Of a stretch of DNA of 64,000 bases, positions 6,469-56,133 are shown in pieces. This DNA is from Patescibacteria group bacterium (lineage in GTDB: Bacteria; Patescibacteriota; Minisyncoccia; Phycocordibacterales; UBA1006): positions 12,121 through 76,120 of the forward strand of contig JAQBQS010000008.1 in NCBI GenBank assembly GCA_028286885.1, in the 5' to 3' direction. Each line of letters begins with the position of its first letter. The first letter of the stretch is position 1. Under the pieces are notes generated by a model. It did no database searches. It was not told where the DNA came from and saw nothing but the letters and a program-made list of their open reading frames with translations. A program made the translations under genes and the position numbers.

Positions 6469-8376
6469 ATGAAGATCCTGACCGTCATCCCCATCGCCAA
6501 AGGCATCCCCCGCGACGAGCTGTCGTATTTTTCCGCGAAGCAGGTGGGGCTCGGTACGATGGTAACGGTTCCCTTCGGCGGAAGAAAAATCAAGGCAATC
6601 GTGATTGACGAAAACGAAGTCCGCGACTTGAAGCAGTCGATCAAGAATGAATCGTACTCCTTGAAAAATATTTTAGAGATCCACGCTGACGGATTGCCAT
6701 ACTGCATATTCGCATCGGCGCAAAAAACTGCGCGGTTTTTCGGACAGCCTGCCGGAGCCATTTTGGAGACAATGGTTCCTAAGCCGCTTTTTGAAAAGTA
6801 CTTGTCAAACCCCACCCCACCCCTCCCCGAAGCTCGAGAGGGCGCCCGCAACGCTGATATCCAATCAATTCAAGCTCCCTACCGCGAGCGCATTTCGATT
6901 TACAAGACGATGATCCGGGAAAACATGGCGCGCAACTCCTCGACCATGGTCATCGCACCGACGGTCATTCAGGCCGAGACCTTGTTCGCCGAGCTGAAAC
7001 TTGGAATTGACGACAGAATATTCGCCCTTCACGGAAAGGTTTCCAAGAAAAAATTAGAGTCGAACATCAAAAACGTTTTCGAACGCGAGACGCCGATCGT
7101 TGTCATCGCGACGCCGCCTTATTCGTCTGTCTTGCGCAACGACTGGGCGTCATTCATCGTCGAGCAGTCAAGCTCGCATAATTATCGATACGACTTCAAG
7201 CCGAATTTCGACATGCGGCTGTTCCTCGAACAGTTCGCGTTAGCATGTCGCGCACGCGTGATCTATGCCGACACGCTTTTGGATATCGGAATTCGCACCC
7301 GCATTAACAAGCGGGAAATAATAGAAAACAGAAATACCTGGCATATTGCGAAACCGGAAAATTTCCGCGTGACGGACATGAAGCCTGACGAACGGCCGGA
7401 CACCGTACGAATTTCTCCCATCAAGTCTGACATCTTGGGCATTGATGCGTGCGCCATGCTCACGGCAGGAATAAAAGACAATGCGAACATAATGCTCTTG
7501 TCGCAGCGAAAAGGCATTGCACCCATGACAACCTGCGTAGACTGCGGAACGGTGGTGTCATGCCCCGTATGCGATACGCCTCTCGTCCTGCATCGCAAGA
7601 AGCCTAACTCTGCCGAGCGAATTTATATGTGCCATCATTGCCTCACCTCTTCGATCGCGCTTGATTACTGCAAGAACTGCAACGGATCCAGGTTCAAGAT
7701 GTTCGGCATTACAACAGAAACGATTCGCGCCGAAGTCGAGAAAATCTTTCCGACCGCGCGCACCTTTTTAATCGACGGCGATAATGCAGCGACTCCGGCA
7801 GCGGTTTCAAAAACCATCTCTGCATGGCAAGAGGAATCTGGAATTCTGATTGCGACCCAAGCCATGCTGCCGTATATTCCGTCGGCTGACATGGGCTGCA
7901 TCGTTTCGATGGATTCGATGCTCTCGATGCCTTCCTACACGTCCGGCGAAAACGCCGTGTACTCGATCGTCTCGTTCCTCGAGAAAATTTCGCGCGCCGC
8001 AATCGTCCAGACGAGAATGCATTCGCACGAAGCGGTGCAGGCCATCGAGCGCGAGGACTTGCACGGATTCATGAAGTCCGAACTTGAATCGAGAATCCAG
8101 TTCGGCTATCCGCCTGAAAAAATACTTTTGAAGATTTCGCTTGATGCCAAGAAAACAGACGCCAAGGATGCCAGCGTTTACTTGGAAACGATTTTCAAGA
8201 AATACGATCCTGACATCCTGATGAAAAAATCAAGGGACATCGACAATTCGATTATTCAAGCCGTCATGAAAATCGAGCCGACACTCTGGAACGACGAGAA
8301 TTCCCGCATCCAGCAAATCGTACGCGAAATGCCTCGGGAATTCACACGCGAAGTAAATCCAGATTCGGTTATTTGA
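6469..8376 (+). CDS. priA: primosomal protein N' (PriA)-like, helicase motifs degenerate
   Basis: N-terminal 3'-DNA-binding-like segment (TMVTVPFGGRKIKAIVI). Zinc cluster CVDCGTVVSCPVCDTP...MCHHC...CKNCNG. PriA-like order of motif blocks, but no GxGKT Walker A and no DEEH motif. ATG at 6469 follows TATACT at 6454..6459. Confidence 0.7.
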   Translation: MKILTVIPIAKGIPRDELSYFSAKQVGLGTMVTVPFGGRKIKAIVIDENEVRDLKQSIKNESYSLKNILEIHADGLPYCIFASAQKTARFFGQPAGAILETMVPKPLFEKYLSNPTPPLPEAREGARNADIQSIQAPYRERISIYKTMIRENMARNSSTMVIAPTVIQAETLFAELKLGIDDRIFALHGKVSKKKLESNIKNVFERETPIVVIATPPYSSVLRNDWASFIVEQSSSHNYRYDFKPNFDMRLFLEQFALACRARVIYADTLLDIGIRTRINKREIIENRNTWHIAKPENFRVTDMKPDERPDTVRISPIKSDILGIDACAMLTAGIKDNANIMLLSQRKGIAPMTTCVDCGTVVSCPVCDTPLVLHRKKPNSAERIYMCHHCLTSSIALDYCKNCNGSRFKMFGITTETIRAEVEKIFPTARTFLIDGDNAATPAAVSKTISAWQEESGILIATQAMLPYIPSADMGCIVSMDSMLSMPSYTSGENAVYSIVSFLEKISRAAIVQTRMHSHEAVQAIEREDLHGFMKSELESRIQFGYPPEKILLKISLDAKKTDAKDASVYLETIFKKYDPDILMKKSRDIDNSIIQAVMKIEPTLWNDENSRIQQIVREMPREFTREVNPDSVI

Positions 8377-27981: not shown

Positions 27982-28086
27982 GATTTTGCCTCGCTATCTG
28001 CGGCAAAAAACTTCCCCAAGGGAAGGTTTTTTGTTTTGACAAAACTCCATGTTCCTGATATGGTTTAGAAAATAAAACAACAAACC

Positions 28087-53096: not shown

Positions 53097-53147
53097 TTGT
53101 GCAAAAAAAGAAAGCGCTCGTGGATATAAATCCGCGAACGCTTTTTG

Positions 53148-53558
53148 TTAGTTCCATTGCCAGACTTCCATGAAAGGCTTACCGATAGCTGCATCAGTTC
53201 CTTCCTTAAAGATAAATATTCCATCAGGAGCTATCGTTACTGTATCAGTAACGTAGATTATATGTCCCATTGGATTATCACCTCTTACAGCGATAAACTT
53301 TTTATCCTTCAGGAAGGTTTCCTCTACCGCATAACTATCAGGGTTGAGGCCGAGCTCGTATTTAGTGCTAAGCAGAGTGACTCCCTCTTTTTTCACATAA
53401 TTGTAAGTTGTGTTTTCTGAGAGAAGTTCGCGAACTGTATCCATATCCGAGGCATAAACATACCTCCATTTTATGGAGTTTTTTCCTTTCAGTGCCTGTT
53501 TAATCTCTTCCAGCACCTCCGGCATGTTTTCTTCCGTTACTATGATTCCTTTTTTCAT
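53148..53558 (-). CDS. hypothetical protein, paralog A of a tandem pair (GIIVTEEN ... DGIFIF ... WxWN)
   Basis: Shares conserved blocks with the 53722..54141 product. Has its own TTGACA-17-TAATAT promoter. Confidence 0.55.
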   Translation of the reverse strand: MKKGIIVTEENMPEVLEEIKQALKGKNSIKWRYVYASDMDTVRELLSENTTYNYVKKEGVTLLSTKYELGLNPDSYAVEETFLKDKKFIAVRGDNPMGHIIYVTDTVTIAPDGIFIFKEGTDAAIGKPFMEVWQWN

Positions 53559-53608
53559 TTACTTGTTGGGTTTTTTATATTAAAAAAATAAAGATCATTT
53601 ATACTGAT

Positions 53609-53637
53609 ATATTAGCATATTTGCAATATATTGTCAA
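53609..53637 (-). promoter_or_regulatory. promoter TTGACA-17-TAATAT for paralog A, 50-nt leader
   Basis: Consensus -35. Duplicated at 54186..54214. Confidence 0.5.
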
Positions 53638-53721
53638 GTATAACAACCCTTACAATATAATGGTTAAAAAATAAAAAACGCTCCTTACGGGGAGCGTTTG
53701 TGATGCTTGGGCATCGATTTC

Positions 53722-54141
53722 TTAATTCCACTTCCATACCTTGATATGCGACATGTCACTAGATGCAAAGTTCGGATCCTGACCTTTCGTAAGGAAGATA
53801 AAGATTCCATCCTCTTCGATAGCGACCCGGGTTCCGAGCATGATGTAATCGTCCTGAACAGAATCGTTCAGCCTGATACACTTCCTCTCCTCGACAGTCT
53901 CGATCTTGATATAGCTGTGTCCTAGTCTGTACTCGTTCCTGAAGCTCATAACCGGTATGTGGTCTATTGACATCGAGTCGTGACCCTTATGAGCTGCCAA
54001 ATATTCACGAGCCGTTTCTATGTCCGGAGTGTAAATTCTCCTCCATAAGATGCTTTCTTTTCTGACGAACTTCGCATGAATGAGGGTTAGAACTTCTTCT
54101 ATGTTTTCTTCTGTTACGATGATTCCTTGAATTTGATTCAT
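53722..54141 (-). CDS. hypothetical protein, paralog B of a tandem pair
   Basis: GIIVTEENIEEVL ... EDGIFIF ... VWKWN. A near-identical promoter and leader lie upstream. Confidence 0.55.
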   Translation of the reverse strand: MNQIQGIIVTEENIEEVLTLIHAKFVRKESILWRRIYTPDIETAREYLAAHKGHDSMSIDHIPVMSFRNEYRLGHSYIKIETVEERKCIRLNDSVQDDYIMLGTRVAIEEDGIFIFLTKGQDPNFASSDMSHIKVWKWN

Positions 54142-54185
54142 TTGGTTGGTTTTTATATTAAAAAATAAAGATCATTTATATAATT

Positions 54186-54214
54186 ATATTAGCATAATTA
54201 ACATTATTTGTCAA
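54186..54214 (-). promoter_or_regulatory. promoter TTGACA-17-TAATAT for paralog B, 44-nt leader
   Basis: A near-identical copy of 53609..53637 including the leader. Confidence 0.5.
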
Positions 54215-54258
54215 GTATAAAAACCCTTATAAAATAAGGGTTTTTATTGATATCTTAG

Positions 54259-54898: not shown

Positions 54899-55564
54899 CT
54901 ATTCGGTTACCACCTGCCCGTCGGAAATCCTGATGATGCGGTCGCAGTGGATCGTATATTCCTTCTCGTGCGTAACCATCACAATCGTCTGTCCCTGCGC
55001 GTGCAGGCTGCGGAAAATATCGATGACGGCCTGGCTCGACACATTGTCAAGGTTGGCCGTCGGCTCGTCCGCAAACAGAATCTTCGGATTGTGCGCAACG
55101 GCGCGCGCGATCGATACGCGCTGCTGTTCCCCTCCCGACATCTGGCTCGGCAAGTTATCAGCACGATGAAGCAAATCGATTTTTTTCAAGGAATCGGTAG
55201 CGATCCGCTTGGCTTCATCGTCTGTTTTTCCCTGCATCAAAAGCGGCACCATGACGTTTTCGATTGCGGTAAGCTCAGGGAGCAGCGCGTAATCTTGGAA
55301 AATATATCCGAGCTGGTTCAGGCGAAATTCCGTTCGCGCGTTGGTATCGAGATCGGTCGCGTTTATGCCGTCAATTTCAATCGAACCTGTAGTCGGATGA
55401 TCAAGGAGGCTGATCTGGTACATCAGGGTGGATTTTCCCGCACCCGACTTTCCCATGATCGCGACAAATTCGCCCGACTTGATGCGGAGCGAAATTCCCT
55501 TCAAGACATGCGTCTCAACGGATCCGTTTTTGAACGTTTTGGTGATGTTGGTTACGTTGATCAT
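54899..55564 (-). CDS. ABC transporter ATP-binding protein (MacB/LolD/FtsE-like)
   Basis: Walker A GKSGAGKST, signature LSGGEQQR, Walker B ILFADE. Confidence 0.9.
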   Translation of the reverse strand: MINVTNITKTFKNGSVETHVLKGISLRIKSGEFVAIMGKSGAGKSTLMYQISLLDHPTTGSIEIDGINATDLDTNARTEFRLNQLGYIFQDYALLPELTAIENVMVPLLMQGKTDDEAKRIATDSLKKIDLLHRADNLPSQMSGGEQQRVSIARAVAHNPKILFADEPTANLDNVSSQAVIDIFRSLHAQGQTIVMVTHEKEYTIHCDRIIRISDGQVVTE

Positions 55565-56133
55565 ACAAATGATATTGAAGCTGTTTCAGATGCTTTATCG
55601 GGCTTGGGATCATTTTCCATGGAGAAATAAAGAGCGACGGATGTAACAGTGATTTCCAAATTCGGATCAAGATGAATGATTTCCTCGACATTCACGTTTT
55701 CCAAACCTTCCAATTCGTAACGGCCGAGGCCGATATGAAAATGATTCTCCGAGAACACATCGAATGGCACTTCATATTTCTTGGCAATGCTGACAACTTT
55801 TTCCGACAGCGCGTCAAGGTCGGCATTTGGCGAGAGCTTGAGGCGCAACGCTCCGACTTTCCGTCCGTCTACCATTCGTTCGCGCATATGAACCGCGGCA
55901 ATGCGAATCTTGAAAGACTTCTGGTCTTTGAAAACATCTGCAAGTTCGATTCCGACTTGTTCAACTTCTTCTTGAGAAAGACTATTGCCGAATGAAACGG
56001 TCGTATGAGGCACCCATTGATCGGTGTATGCGGAATGGCCCAAAACTTTTCTTATTTCATCTTGAAAGCCGAGCACGGCATCGGTGCTCGCTTGGTCGAA
56101 AAGTGCAATGTATGTGTAATCGTGTTTGTTCAT
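55561..56133 (-). CDS. 2H phosphoesterase-like protein (LigT/YjcG-like; second H-x-T/S motif degenerate)
   Basis: HTTVSF first motif and HIGLGR at the second position. ATGA overlap with the downstream ATPase gene. Confidence 0.4.
   Translation of the reverse strand: MNKHDYTYIALFDQASTDAVLGFQDEIRKVLGHSAYTDQWVPHTTVSFGNSLSQEEVEQVGIELADVFKDQKSFKIRIAAVHMRERMVDGRKVGALRLKLSPNADLDALSEKVVSIAKKYEVPFDVFSENHFHIGLGRYELEGLENVNVEEIIHLDPNLEITVTSVALYFSMENDPKPDKASETASISFV

What the first reader, a model, noticed from the sequence alone, without database searches (positions are those of the whole stretch)
53148..54258. Tandemly duplicated promoter+gene cassette of unknown function, promoter more conserved than protein
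Two adjacent minus-strand genes, 136 aa and 139 aa, encode divergent paralogs. Shared blocks are GIIVTEEN.EEVL, W..Y..D..T.RE.L, DGIFIF..G.D and C-terminal W.WN. Each gene is preceded by an almost identical unit. The unit is TTGACA-17-TAATAT followed by a 45-50-nt leader of the form (G/A)ATTATATAAATGATCTTTATTTTTTAATATAAAAAC. The upstream DNA is visibly more conserved than the coding sequence. Each cassette ends at its own terminator hairpin. Stronger conservation of the promoter and leader than of the protein suggests selection on a regulatory element in the leader, or recent gene conversion of the regulatory region. The products have no motif I recognise. The cassette lies immediately downstream of an ABC/HlyD export operon and a secreted protein gene.
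Basis: seen in the sequence. Interest (0 to 1): 0.7.

Follow-up and report, generated by a model that had tools for sequence, protein, structure and literature searches.

The report
Duplicated gene cassette with invariant leader
Two neighbouring small genes of an uncharacterised protein family in a Patescibacteria (CPR) genome each carry the same terminator-promoter-leader unit, and a 29-base stretch at the start of the mRNA is identical in three related genomes although the proteins have drifted to 24-45% identity, which points to an undescribed regulatory signal of unknown mechanism.

Summary
Genes A (139 aa) and B (136 aa) are 36-39% identical paralogs with saturated synonymous sites. Their upstream units are about 80% identical.

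Each unit has a terminator hairpin, a TTGACA-17-TGCTAATAT promoter and a 44-50 nt leader. The same unit precedes family genes in two related metagenome genomes.

Conservation is in blocks. The -35 and extended -10 are invariant, and so is a 29-nt leader core. The promoter spacer, the start-site region and the last ~10 nt before the ATG vary. This pattern fits purifying selection better than gene conversion.

The leader core does not fold and matches no Rfam family. It occurs only with family genes. The hairpin+promoter half also precedes two unrelated genes, which resembles the PeSL cassettes of T4-type phages.

The protein belongs to a rare family of about 25 representatives among 1.84 billion. 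It has no Pfam, PDB or defence-system match. Its model is confident (pLDDT 90) but has no structural relative.

Best reading: insulated, strongly transcribed, shuffled cassettes whose leader is a family-specific control element. How that element works is unresolved.

The parts
54217..54247 (-). Terminator hairpin at the 5' edge of cassette A (ATAAAAACCCTTAT-TTT-ATAAGGGTTTTTAT). It terminates the upstream 195-aa gene, and its T-tract runs into the promoter.
   Evidence: 100% complementary 14-nt arms (I4); -14.5 kcal/mol. Homologous hairpins, some with compensatory or wobble changes, occur in A', P0004 and two unrelated genes.
54186..54214 (-). Promoter of gene A: TTGACA, 17 nt, TGCTAATAT (extended -10).
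   Evidence: The -35 and extended -10 blocks are invariant in all four family copies.
54150..54178 (-). Invariant 29-nt leader core of gene A (TAAATGATCTTTATTTTTTAATATAAAAA). It starts 7 nt after the -10, so at or near the 5' end of the mRNA. It contains a mini-ORF at 54158-54175 (MIFIF*) and a second TAATAT.
   Evidence: Identical in A, A', B (with one extra T) and P0004. Absent from the rest of the window.
53722..54141 (-). Gene A (139 aa; GenBank tag JWM20_508), a member of an uncharacterised small-protein family.
   Evidence: AF2 model pLDDT 90. No Pfam, NCBIfam, PHROG, PADLOC or PDB relative.
53673..53715 (-). A-type terminator: a small hairpin GATGCCCAAGCATC followed by ACGCTCCCCGTAAGGAGCGTTTTTT.
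   Evidence: -19.4 kcal/mol. Shared with A' through a compensatory T/A to A/T change, and with the unrelated 142-aa gene in L001.
53640..53665 (-). Decayed copy of the cassette hairpin upstream of gene B (AACCATTATATTGTAAGGGTTGTTAT).
   Evidence: Aligns with the hairpin of A but folds at only -3.1 kcal/mol. It is redundant here because termA lies just upstream.
53609..53637 (-). Promoter of gene B: TTGACA, 17 nt, TGCTAATAT.
53572..53601 (-). Leader core of gene B (30 nt; one extra T in the T-run). Its mini-ORF at 53575-53598 reads MIFIFLI*.
53148..53558 (-). Gene B (136 aa; JWM20_507), paralog of A. Closest relative is P0004 in L006 (45% identity).
53103..53146 (-). B-type terminator (AAAAAGCGTTCGCGGATTTATATCCACGAGCGCTTTCTTTTTTT). 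It faces the convergent MFS gene as well, so it is bidirectional.
   Evidence: -20.3 kcal/mol. Its first 25 nt are identical to the terminator after P0004 in L006.

Best explanation
What it is. These are two tandem, self-contained expression cassettes that arose by duplication. Each consists of:
- an insulating terminator hairpin whose T-tract abuts the promoter;
- a near-consensus sigma-70-type promoter with an extended -10;
- a 44-50 nt AU-rich, unstructured leader without a Shine-Dalgarno sequence;
- a small, soluble, acidic protein of an uncharacterised, fast-evolving family;
- its own intrinsic terminator.

Two layers of cis-elements.
1. The hairpin+promoter module is a locus-specific repeated regulatory unit. 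It precedes the family genes and also unrelated small genes. It looks like a junction at which genes are swapped or moved, as PeSL cassettes are in T4-type phages.
2. The 29-nt leader core travels only with the family genes and is kept by purifying selection. I take it to be a family-specific control element that is read within the first ~30 nt of the transcript, or on the DNA at about +8 to +36. It would place both paralogs under one control.

Most likely mechanism. I favour post-transcriptional control, in which a trans-acting factor or the ribosome uses this single-stranded AU-rich 5' segment to set translation or mRNA stability. The main alternative is an operator for a DNA-binding repressor downstream of the -10.

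Shown: the anatomy, the duplication, the block-wise conservation across three genomes, the lack of RNA structure, the family specificity of the leader, the mosaic arrangement of modules, and the absence of known homologs.

Inferred: transcription start and strength, the function of the leader, and everything about the protein's role.
For: Anatomy and duplication.

Conservation across genomes.
- The unit recurs before A' in L001 and P0004 in L006/L011.
- Those proteins are 81%, 30% and 45% identical to A or B, and pS is 0.78-0.89 for every pair except A/A'.
- Of 106 non-coding columns, 71 are invariant. They cluster in the hairpin 3' arm, TAT(A/G)CTTGACAA, ATGCTAATAT and a 29-column run. A run that long arises in about 1 in 10,000 column shuffles.
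- All 7 columns between the -10 and the core vary, and most spacer columns vary.
- Other orthologous intergenic regions between these genomes are only 29-66% identical.

The leader.
- It tracks the gene family. The two unrelated genes that carry the same hairpin+promoter module have other leaders, and the 142-aa protein is unrelated by hhalign.
- It folds no better than shuffled sequence (z = +0.6 to +1.4), and no Rfam family comes near its threshold.
- Leaders elsewhere in this genome are also A-rich and lack an SD.

Module shuffling.
- The same terminator follows A' and the unrelated 142-aa gene.
- The B-type cassette sits between BipA and MFP in L006 but between cassette A and MFS in the window.
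- The slot holding B in the window holds the unrelated gene in L001.
- A/A' has dS 0.32 and omega 0.31, against dS 0.8-2.5 and omega 0.03-0.10 for six flanking genes.

Protein family. About 25 true representatives among 1.84 billion; every member with enough upstream sequence has a TTGAC-17-TGnTAnnAT promoter.
Against: - There are only four copies of the leader, and effectively three independent ones, because A and A' are close. The core shows no variation, so there is nothing to distinguish DNA-level from RNA-level function.
- No transcript data exist. The start site and promoter activity are inferred from consensus matches.
- No candidate trans-acting factor was identified.
- Only 64 kb of this genome and 8-20 kb of the relatives were available, so further copies of the leader could exist elsewhere. 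That would change the claim that it is family-specific.
- Distant family members (L007, L008, L009, L025, L028) have different leaders, so the element belongs to one clade, not to the family as a whole.
- The low dS of A/A' shows that exchange between lineages happens. Part of the conservation may therefore reflect recent shared ancestry rather than selection.
Confidence: 0.6

Rival explanations
1. Concerted evolution alone. The upstream similarity would reflect gene conversion between A and B, plus recent exchange of cassette ends between related genomes. The hairpin+promoter and terminator sequences would serve only as patches of homology for recombination, as in PeSL cassettes. The leader core would have no function of its own and would simply be carried along.
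For: - Cassette A is younger between genomes than its flanks (dS 0.32 against 0.8-2.5).
- The modules occur in mosaic combinations.
- The B-type terminator is identical over its 5' arm and loop (25/25) but differs at 4 positions in the 3' arm between the window and L006. That pattern fits a crossover inside the stem-loop, as reported for PeSLs (PMC2839356).
- The decayed hairpin upstream of B is still about 85% identical to that of A although it no longer folds.
Against: - A conversion tract should be uniformly similar. Instead, 100% blocks alternate with roughly 50% blocks on a 7-12 nt scale, and the blocks coincide with the -35, the extended -10 and the core.
- B and P0004 lie in different genomes and have saturated synonymous sites, yet share an identical core. 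Conversion of both flanks but not the CDS would be needed, and more than once.
- The leader does not accompany the promoter module in front of unrelated genes.
Confidence: 0.2
2. Loading of ribosomes through a mini-ORF. The core would encode a 5-7 codon leader peptide (MIFIF* in A, A' and P0004; MIFIFLI* in B). Its AUG lies exactly 10 nt after the -10 in all four copies, which makes it almost leaderless. Ribosomes would load there, terminate 16 nt before the main AUG in all four copies, and then reinitiate. This would replace the missing Shine-Dalgarno sequence. Alternatively, ribosomes would stall on the I/F-rich peptide as in erm or cat leaders.
For: - The AUG and an in-frame stop are present in all four copies, even with the 1-nt insertion in B.
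- The distance from the -10 to the AUG is fixed at 10 nt.
- The mRNA has no SD and no structure.
Against: - All synonymous positions of the mini-ORF are invariant, which coding alone does not explain.
- There are no alternative hairpins of the kind attenuation needs.
- Leaders of other family members have no such ORF.
- ATG and TAA triplets are common by chance in AT-rich sequence.
Confidence: 0.1
3. Structured cis-regulatory RNA. The conserved leader would form a ligand-, protein- or temperature-sensing fold, as a riboswitch, RNA thermometer or attenuator does.
For: There is high sequence conservation in a 5' UTR. Weak A-U pairings are possible, namely UUUUU/AAAAA and AUAAA/UUUAU.
Against: - The leader is 44-50 nt long with only two G/C in the core.
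- The minimum free energy is -3.8 to -6.5 kcal/mol, worse than shuffled sequence (z = +0.6 to +1.4).
- No Rfam match comes near its gathering score.
- No covariation is possible to assess because the core is invariant.
Confidence: 0.03

Closest known systems
PeSL (promoter-early stem-loop) regulatory cassettes of T4-type phages (Arbiol et al. 2010, PMC2839356; Comeau et al. 2014, PMC4122927)
   Same: Both are a composite of a terminator stem-loop, an AT-rich tract and a consensus sigma-70 promoter. Both are repeated in front of small orphan genes in a plastic region. In both, the modules form mosaics consistent with gene swapping at the elements, with a possible crossover inside a stem-loop.
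   Different: This case is in a cellular Patescibacteria chromosome, not a phage. Only six copies were seen, in three genomes. The stem is AAAAACCCTT/AAGGGTTTTT rather than polyG/polyC. There is no evidence for circular intermediates. The invariant 29-nt leader that travels with one gene family has no counterpart in the PeSL description.
Conserved 5' non-coding regions shared by divergent paralogs, such as the upstream homology box/operator of Borrelia erp (ospE/F-related) loci and the 'cold box' of the 5' UTRs of E. coli csp paralogs (recalled from memory, not checked here)
   Same: Paralogous genes keep a promoter-proximal or 5'-UTR sequence more conserved than their coding regions, which places them under common control.
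   Different: In those systems the binding factors or the autoregulation are known, and the proteins belong to characterised families. Here neither the factor nor the protein function is known, and the element is AU-rich, unstructured and invariant over 29 nt.
Leader-peptide control of resistance genes (ermC, cat and cmlA leaders; recalled from memory)
   Same: There is a short ORF rich in Ile and Phe immediately upstream of the regulated gene.
   Different: Those systems depend on alternative RNA hairpins that hide the downstream ribosome-binding site. No such structure is predicted here, and there is no Shine-Dalgarno sequence to hide.
B. subtilis YojF (PDB 1njh) and PH/PTB-like beta-barrels, the best structural matches to the protein
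   Different: The scores are at the level of generic fold resemblance, with 4-10% identity. Foldseek finds nothing with E <= 0.001 in the PDB or the viral models. No function can be transferred.

Membership tests
PeSL-type mobile regulatory cassette | A stem-loop that can act as a terminator, placed directly next to the promoter | tested here: met
   The hairpin at 54217-54247 folds at -14.5 kcal/mol and ends 2 nt before the -35. It is present in five of six module copies and decayed in B.
PeSL-type mobile regulatory cassette | A consensus sigma-70-like promoter with an AT-rich region upstream | tested here: met
   TTGACA-17-TGCTAATAT preceded by TTTTTATAC. Function was not tested experimentally.
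PeSL-type mobile regulatory cassette | Repeated copies that flank orphan genes and mark insertion, deletion or replacement differences between related genomes | tested here: inconclusive
   There are six copies in three genomes. The slot holding B in the window holds an unrelated gene in L001, and the B-type cassette sits elsewhere in L006. The copies are too few, and no breakpoint was mapped.
PeSL-type mobile regulatory cassette | Resides in hyperplastic regions of T4-type phage genomes | tested here: not met
   The context is chromosomal, in a Patescibacteria MAG: BipA, RNase J, SecG, ABC exporter and tRNAs. This is therefore an analogue, not a member.
Structured cis-regulatory RNA (riboswitch, attenuator, thermometer; any Rfam family) | A conserved secondary structure, or a match to a curated covariance model | tested here: not met
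   Folding z-scores are +0.6 to +1.4. The best Rfam hits score 17-25 bits against gathering scores of 47-115.
Leader-peptide translational or transcriptional attenuation | A short leader ORF together with mutually exclusive hairpins that control a terminator or the ribosome-binding site | tested here: not met
   The mini-ORF is present, but there are no competing hairpins.
Any described protein family (Pfam-A, NCBIfam, PHROGs, PADLOC, PDB sequences) | A significant profile match | tested here: not met
   Nothing reaches a curated cut-off. The best hits are phrog_23396 (unknown function, E = 0.005) and CRS1_YhbY (E = 0.08).
Tandem paralogs from duplication of a whole transcription unit | Homology that extends through flank, promoter, leader and CDS, in the same order and orientation, about 577 nt apart | tested here: met
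   Repeat families D1-D3 have a spacing of 577-578 nt. The proteins match at E = 2e-20. The hairpin remnant upstream of B is homologous to the hairpin of A.

The most novel reading that the evidence does not exclude
The invariant 29-nt core would be a new kind of translation-initiation device for mRNAs without a Shine-Dalgarno sequence in CPR bacteria. A 5-codon mini-ORF whose AUG lies almost at the 5' end of the transcript would load ribosomes in the manner of leaderless mRNAs. It would then hand them on by termination and reinitiation to the main start codon, 16 nt downstream of the mini-ORF stop. The sequence could also be bound by the encoded protein for autoregulation. The whole unit would be carried on PeSL-like mobile regulatory cassettes, which have so far been described only in phages.
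Probability: 0.08. Interest if true: 0.75.

Novelty: new variant of a known kind. Interest (0 to 1): 0.5.

Why it matters
Almost nothing is known from experiments about how Patescibacteria (CPR) control gene expression.

- This locus offers a compact, testable case. It has a near-perfect extended -10 promoter fused to an insulating terminator. It also has a 29-nt leader element whose invariance across genomes with saturated synonymous sites predicts a specific reader, whether a protein, an RNA or the ribosome.
- If the leader governs translation or stability of mRNAs that lack a Shine-Dalgarno sequence, it would inform gene expression in a large, uncultivated part of bacterial diversity.
- If the hairpin+promoter modules are recombination junctions, cassette shuffling of the PeSL type would extend from phages to cellular genomes.
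- The protein is a confidently modelled fold with no relatives, so it is a clean target for structural and functional work.

The case is limited: it rests on three genomes and four copies, and there is no hint of the protein's role.

Tried and rejected
- Protein annotation. Pfam, NCBIfam, PHROGs, PADLOC and a PDB sequence-profile search gave nothing significant.
- Structured RNA. Rejected by folding z-scores and the Rfam scan.
- Leader motif in public collections. The genome-contig scan returned only the L006 genome again (L011) and a chance hit inside a Bacteroidetes gene (L010). The metagenome-contig scan returned 13 hits, all chance matches in AT-rich DNA with no promoter or family gene.
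- Protein-pattern scan of genome contigs. No relative was found, and the full family alignment was too divergent to use.
- Functional link to the MacB-type exporter. I considered it because P0004 also sits next to MFP-FtsX-ABC. I dropped it as a family trait because members in L009, L028 and L029 lie in unrelated contexts and the three exporter-linked loci are syntenic, so they are not independent.
- Overlap of the MFP gene call with P0004 in L006. This is probably a mis-called start, because a terminator lies between the two genes.
- A second promoter at the internal TAATAT. By inspection there is no conserved -35 and no TG extension in front of it.
- Strain-level polymorphism across five contigs carrying A'. 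They are identical in the cassette, so this gave no information.
Full report
OBSERVATION

The window comes from a Patescibacteria (CPR) metagenome-assembled genome. The two proteins exist in GenBank as hypothetical proteins JWM20_508 and JWM20_507.

On the minus strand, gene A (53722-54141, 139 aa) and gene B (53148-53558, 136 aa) are paralogs. BLASTP gives 36% identity and E = 2e-20. The shared blocks are GIIVTEEN, W.R.Y..D..T.RE.L, DGIFIF and VW.WN.

At the nucleotide level the coding sequences are 53-55% identical. Third codon positions are 39% identical, and pS is 0.78, which means saturation.

The upstream DNA is much more alike. An ungapped 83-nt block is 82% identical, and the 106-column non-coding unit is 79% identical. 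The first ~28 nt after the start region are 93% identical.

Both genes have TTGACA-17-TGCTAATAT promoters. These are the best minus-strand matches in the surrounding 10 kb. The leaders are 44 and 50 nt long. Each gene has its own terminator, at -19.4 and -20.3 kcal/mol.

The motifs occur nowhere else in the 64 kb, and shuffles give none.

ANATOMY

The duplicated unit is about 577 nt long. It begins upstream of the promoter with a terminator hairpin.
- In front of A this hairpin is intact (54217-54247, -14.5 kcal/mol). It terminates the preceding 195-aa gene, and its T-run abuts the -35.
- In front of B the homologous sequence has decayed to -3.1 kcal/mol. It is redundant there, because A's own terminator lies just upstream.

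So a whole unit of hairpin, promoter, leader and gene was duplicated.

Leaders throughout this genome are A-rich and lack a Shine-Dalgarno sequence. The absence of an SD before A and B is therefore normal for this organism.

RELATED GENOMES

A word-indexed search of 5.8 billion proteins found only one homolog of A, P0002 (81% identical), and none of B. An exhaustive profile search of 1.84 billion cluster representatives found 26 hits at E <= 0.001. About 25 are true members of 130-150 aa, and one is a repeat-protein artefact.

P0002 (called A' here) lies in a syntenic locus, L001. The order there is BipA, MFP, FtsX, ABC, a secreted protein, A', an unrelated 142-aa secreted protein, and MFS.

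P0004 is 45% identical to B and 30% to A. It lies in a third genome (L006, the same genome as L011) between BipA and MFP.

The three genomes are moderately related. BipA is 95-97% identical and MFP 72-82% identical at the amino-acid level. Third-position identity is 38-65%.

THE KEY RESULT

A' and P0004 carry the same 5' unit as A and B. In the four-way alignment conservation is in blocks.

Invariant blocks:
- the 3' arm of the hairpin (AAGGGTT);
- TAT(A/G)CTTGACAA;
- ATGCTAATAT;
- a 29-nt leader core, TAAATGATCTTTATTTTTTAATATAAAAA, with one extra T in B.

Variable parts:
- most of the -35/-10 spacer;
- all seven positions between the -10 and the core;
- the 8-14 nt before the start codon.

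Of 106 non-coding columns, 71 are invariant. A run of 29 invariant columns arises in about 1 in 10,000 shuffles of the columns. Other orthologous intergenic regions between these genomes are only 29-66% identical.

Every protein pair except A/A' has saturated synonymous sites. The identical core in three lineages is therefore best explained by purifying selection. Gene conversion would give uniformly similar tracts. It also cannot link genes in different genomes without exchange, and exchange would carry the CDS along too.

TWO SEPARABLE MODULES

The hairpin+promoter half occurs six times in the sequence I hold. Four copies precede the family genes. One precedes the unrelated 142-aa gene in L001, and one precedes an unrelated membrane-protein gene after the ABC ATPase in L006. 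hhalign gives a probability of 0.05% that the 142-aa protein is related to the family.

The leader core occurs only with the four family genes.

The terminators are also shared in a mosaic pattern.
- The A-type terminator follows A, A' (with a compensatory change in the stem) and the unrelated 142-aa gene.
- The B-type terminator follows B and P0004. It is identical over the 5' arm and loop (25/25) but differs at four positions in the 3' arm.

The slot that holds B in the window holds the unrelated gene in L001. The B-type cassette sits at a different place in L006.

Cassette A also shares more recent ancestry between the window and L001 than its surroundings do. Its dS is 0.32, against 0.8-2.5 for six flanking genes. 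Its protein evolves under weaker constraint, with omega 0.31 against 0.03-0.10.

Together these findings show that cassettes are moved, replaced or exchanged at this locus. The conserved regulatory sequences lie at the junctions.

WHAT THE LEADER IS NOT

It is not a structured RNA. Three leaders fold no better than shuffled sequence (z = +0.6 to +1.4). No Rfam model comes near its gathering score.

It is not a classical attenuator, because there are no alternative hairpins.

It is not a general feature of the protein family. Distant members (L007, L008, L009, L025, L028) have equally strong extended -10 promoters but different leaders, and some of those have their own long stem-loops.

WHAT THE LEADER MIGHT BE

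The core begins 7 nt after the -10, so it probably forms the first ~30 nt of the mRNA. Three features can be read directly from the sequence.
- A mini-ORF: MIFIF* in A, A' and P0004, and MIFIFLI* in B. Its AUG lies exactly 10 nt after the -10 in all four copies.
- A GATC site flanked by ATAAA and TTTAT.
- A second TAATAT flanked by T5 and A5.

These features suggest several mechanisms. One is binding of a factor or the ribosome to single-stranded AU-rich RNA. Another is an operator downstream of the -10. Others are leaderless-type ribosome loading followed by reinitiation, and sigma-dependent pausing. The data cannot separate them because the core shows no variation.

I favour a family-specific control element that acts at the RNA level, with a DNA operator as the main alternative.

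THE PROTEIN

A and B are soluble and acidic (pI 5.7 and 5.1). Neither has a predicted signal peptide (by inspection of the sequences; for pI).

AlphaFold2 with the 25-member alignment gives a confident model, with pLDDT 90 and pTM 0.85. It shows an N-terminal beta-alpha-beta-alpha segment followed by a beta-rich domain.

The neighbourhood of the MacB-type exporter is shared only by the three syntenic genomes. Other members lie next to unrelated genes. I therefore draw no functional link. The protein's role remains unknown.

Two things can be said about it. It is always a stand-alone unit under a strong promoter, and it evolves fast.

COMPARISON WITH KNOWN SYSTEMS

The hairpin+promoter module matches the published description of PeSLs in T4-type phages. 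PeSLs are composite elements of a terminator stem-loop, an AT-rich tract and a consensus sigma-70 promoter. They are associated with orphan genes and serve as points of homologous recombination, with crossovers mapped inside the stem-loop (PMC2839356 and PMC4122927).

The present case is an analogue, not a member. It lies in a cellular chromosome and has few copies. It also carries an extra, gene-family-specific invariant leader.

Conserved 5' regions shared by divergent paralogs are also known from Borrelia erp loci and from E. coli csp genes. I recall these from memory and did not check them here.

VERDICT

The finding is a new variant of known kinds: duplicated regulatory cassettes and a conserved 5' leader. 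It involves an uncharacterised protein family and an undescribed leader motif in a poorly understood lineage.

Evidence for function is comparative only, and it rests on three genomes.

Noticed in passing
window 55561-56133 (-): A 190-aa gene of the 2'-5' RNA ligase / 2H phosphoesterase superfamily (PF13563, E = 4.6e-6) sits between the FtsX permease and ABC ATPase genes of the exporter operon. It overlaps the ATPase start by 4 nt. It is absent from the syntenic operons in L001 and L006, where FtsX is followed directly by the ATPase.
   Followed up: partly
window 53700-54238 vs L001 9890-10470: Cassette A forms an island of 80-97% nucleotide identity between the two genomes, set in flanks of 55-78%. 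Its dS is 0.32 against 0.8-2.5 for the neighbours. Its differences are spread almost evenly over the three codon positions (12%, 9%, 17%). This points to recent exchange between lineages plus weak protein constraint.
   Followed up: yes
L001 10464-11066: An unrelated 142/147-aa protein with a signal peptide occupies the slot that holds gene B in the window. It uses the same hairpin+promoter module (2 mismatches) and the same A-type terminator as A', but a different leader. It has no Pfam match.
   Followed up: partly
L006 5985-6097: A further copy of the hairpin+promoter module (TATAAAAACCCTTTAAAATTAAAGGGTTTTT...CTTGACT-17-TGATATAAT) precedes a membrane-protein gene after the ABC ATPase. In the window and in L001 the equivalent spacer has a plain TGGTATAAT promoter without the hairpin.
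   Followed up: partly
window 53103-53146 vs L006 2464-2507: The B-type terminator is identical over its 5' arm and loop (25/25 nt) in the two genomes, but differs at four positions in the 3' arm. This asymmetry would fit a recombination breakpoint inside the stem-loop. It was not tested further.
   Followed up: no
window, promoters at 8373, 9689, 12592, 14134, 28036, 45094, 60780, 61957: The genome uses near-consensus TTGACA(A)-16/18-TAnnnT promoters (10 matches against 1.1 expected). These are often placed directly after a terminator T-run, as at 28036 and 61957. Leaders are A-rich and lack a Shine-Dalgarno sequence, and many contain AAACC or CAAAAAC shortly before the ATG.
   Followed up: partly
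L009 4925-5000; L025 400-520: Distant family members have long leaders (77 and 130 nt) that contain extended stem-loops, for example TTATTGGTTTATCT...AGATAAACCAATAA. Elaborate but different leaders may therefore be common in this family.
   Followed up: no
L006 2433-2460: The called start of the MFP gene overlaps the end of P0004 and runs through its terminator. The true MFP start is probably further downstream, so the two genes are unlikely to be translationally coupled.
   Followed up: no
proteins P0016, P0024, P0023: A few family members carry C-terminal extensions. P0016 and P0024 share a tail (LIKMFG...LGP). P0023 is 337 aa long, with an unrelated C-terminal region of about 200 aa.
   Followed up: no
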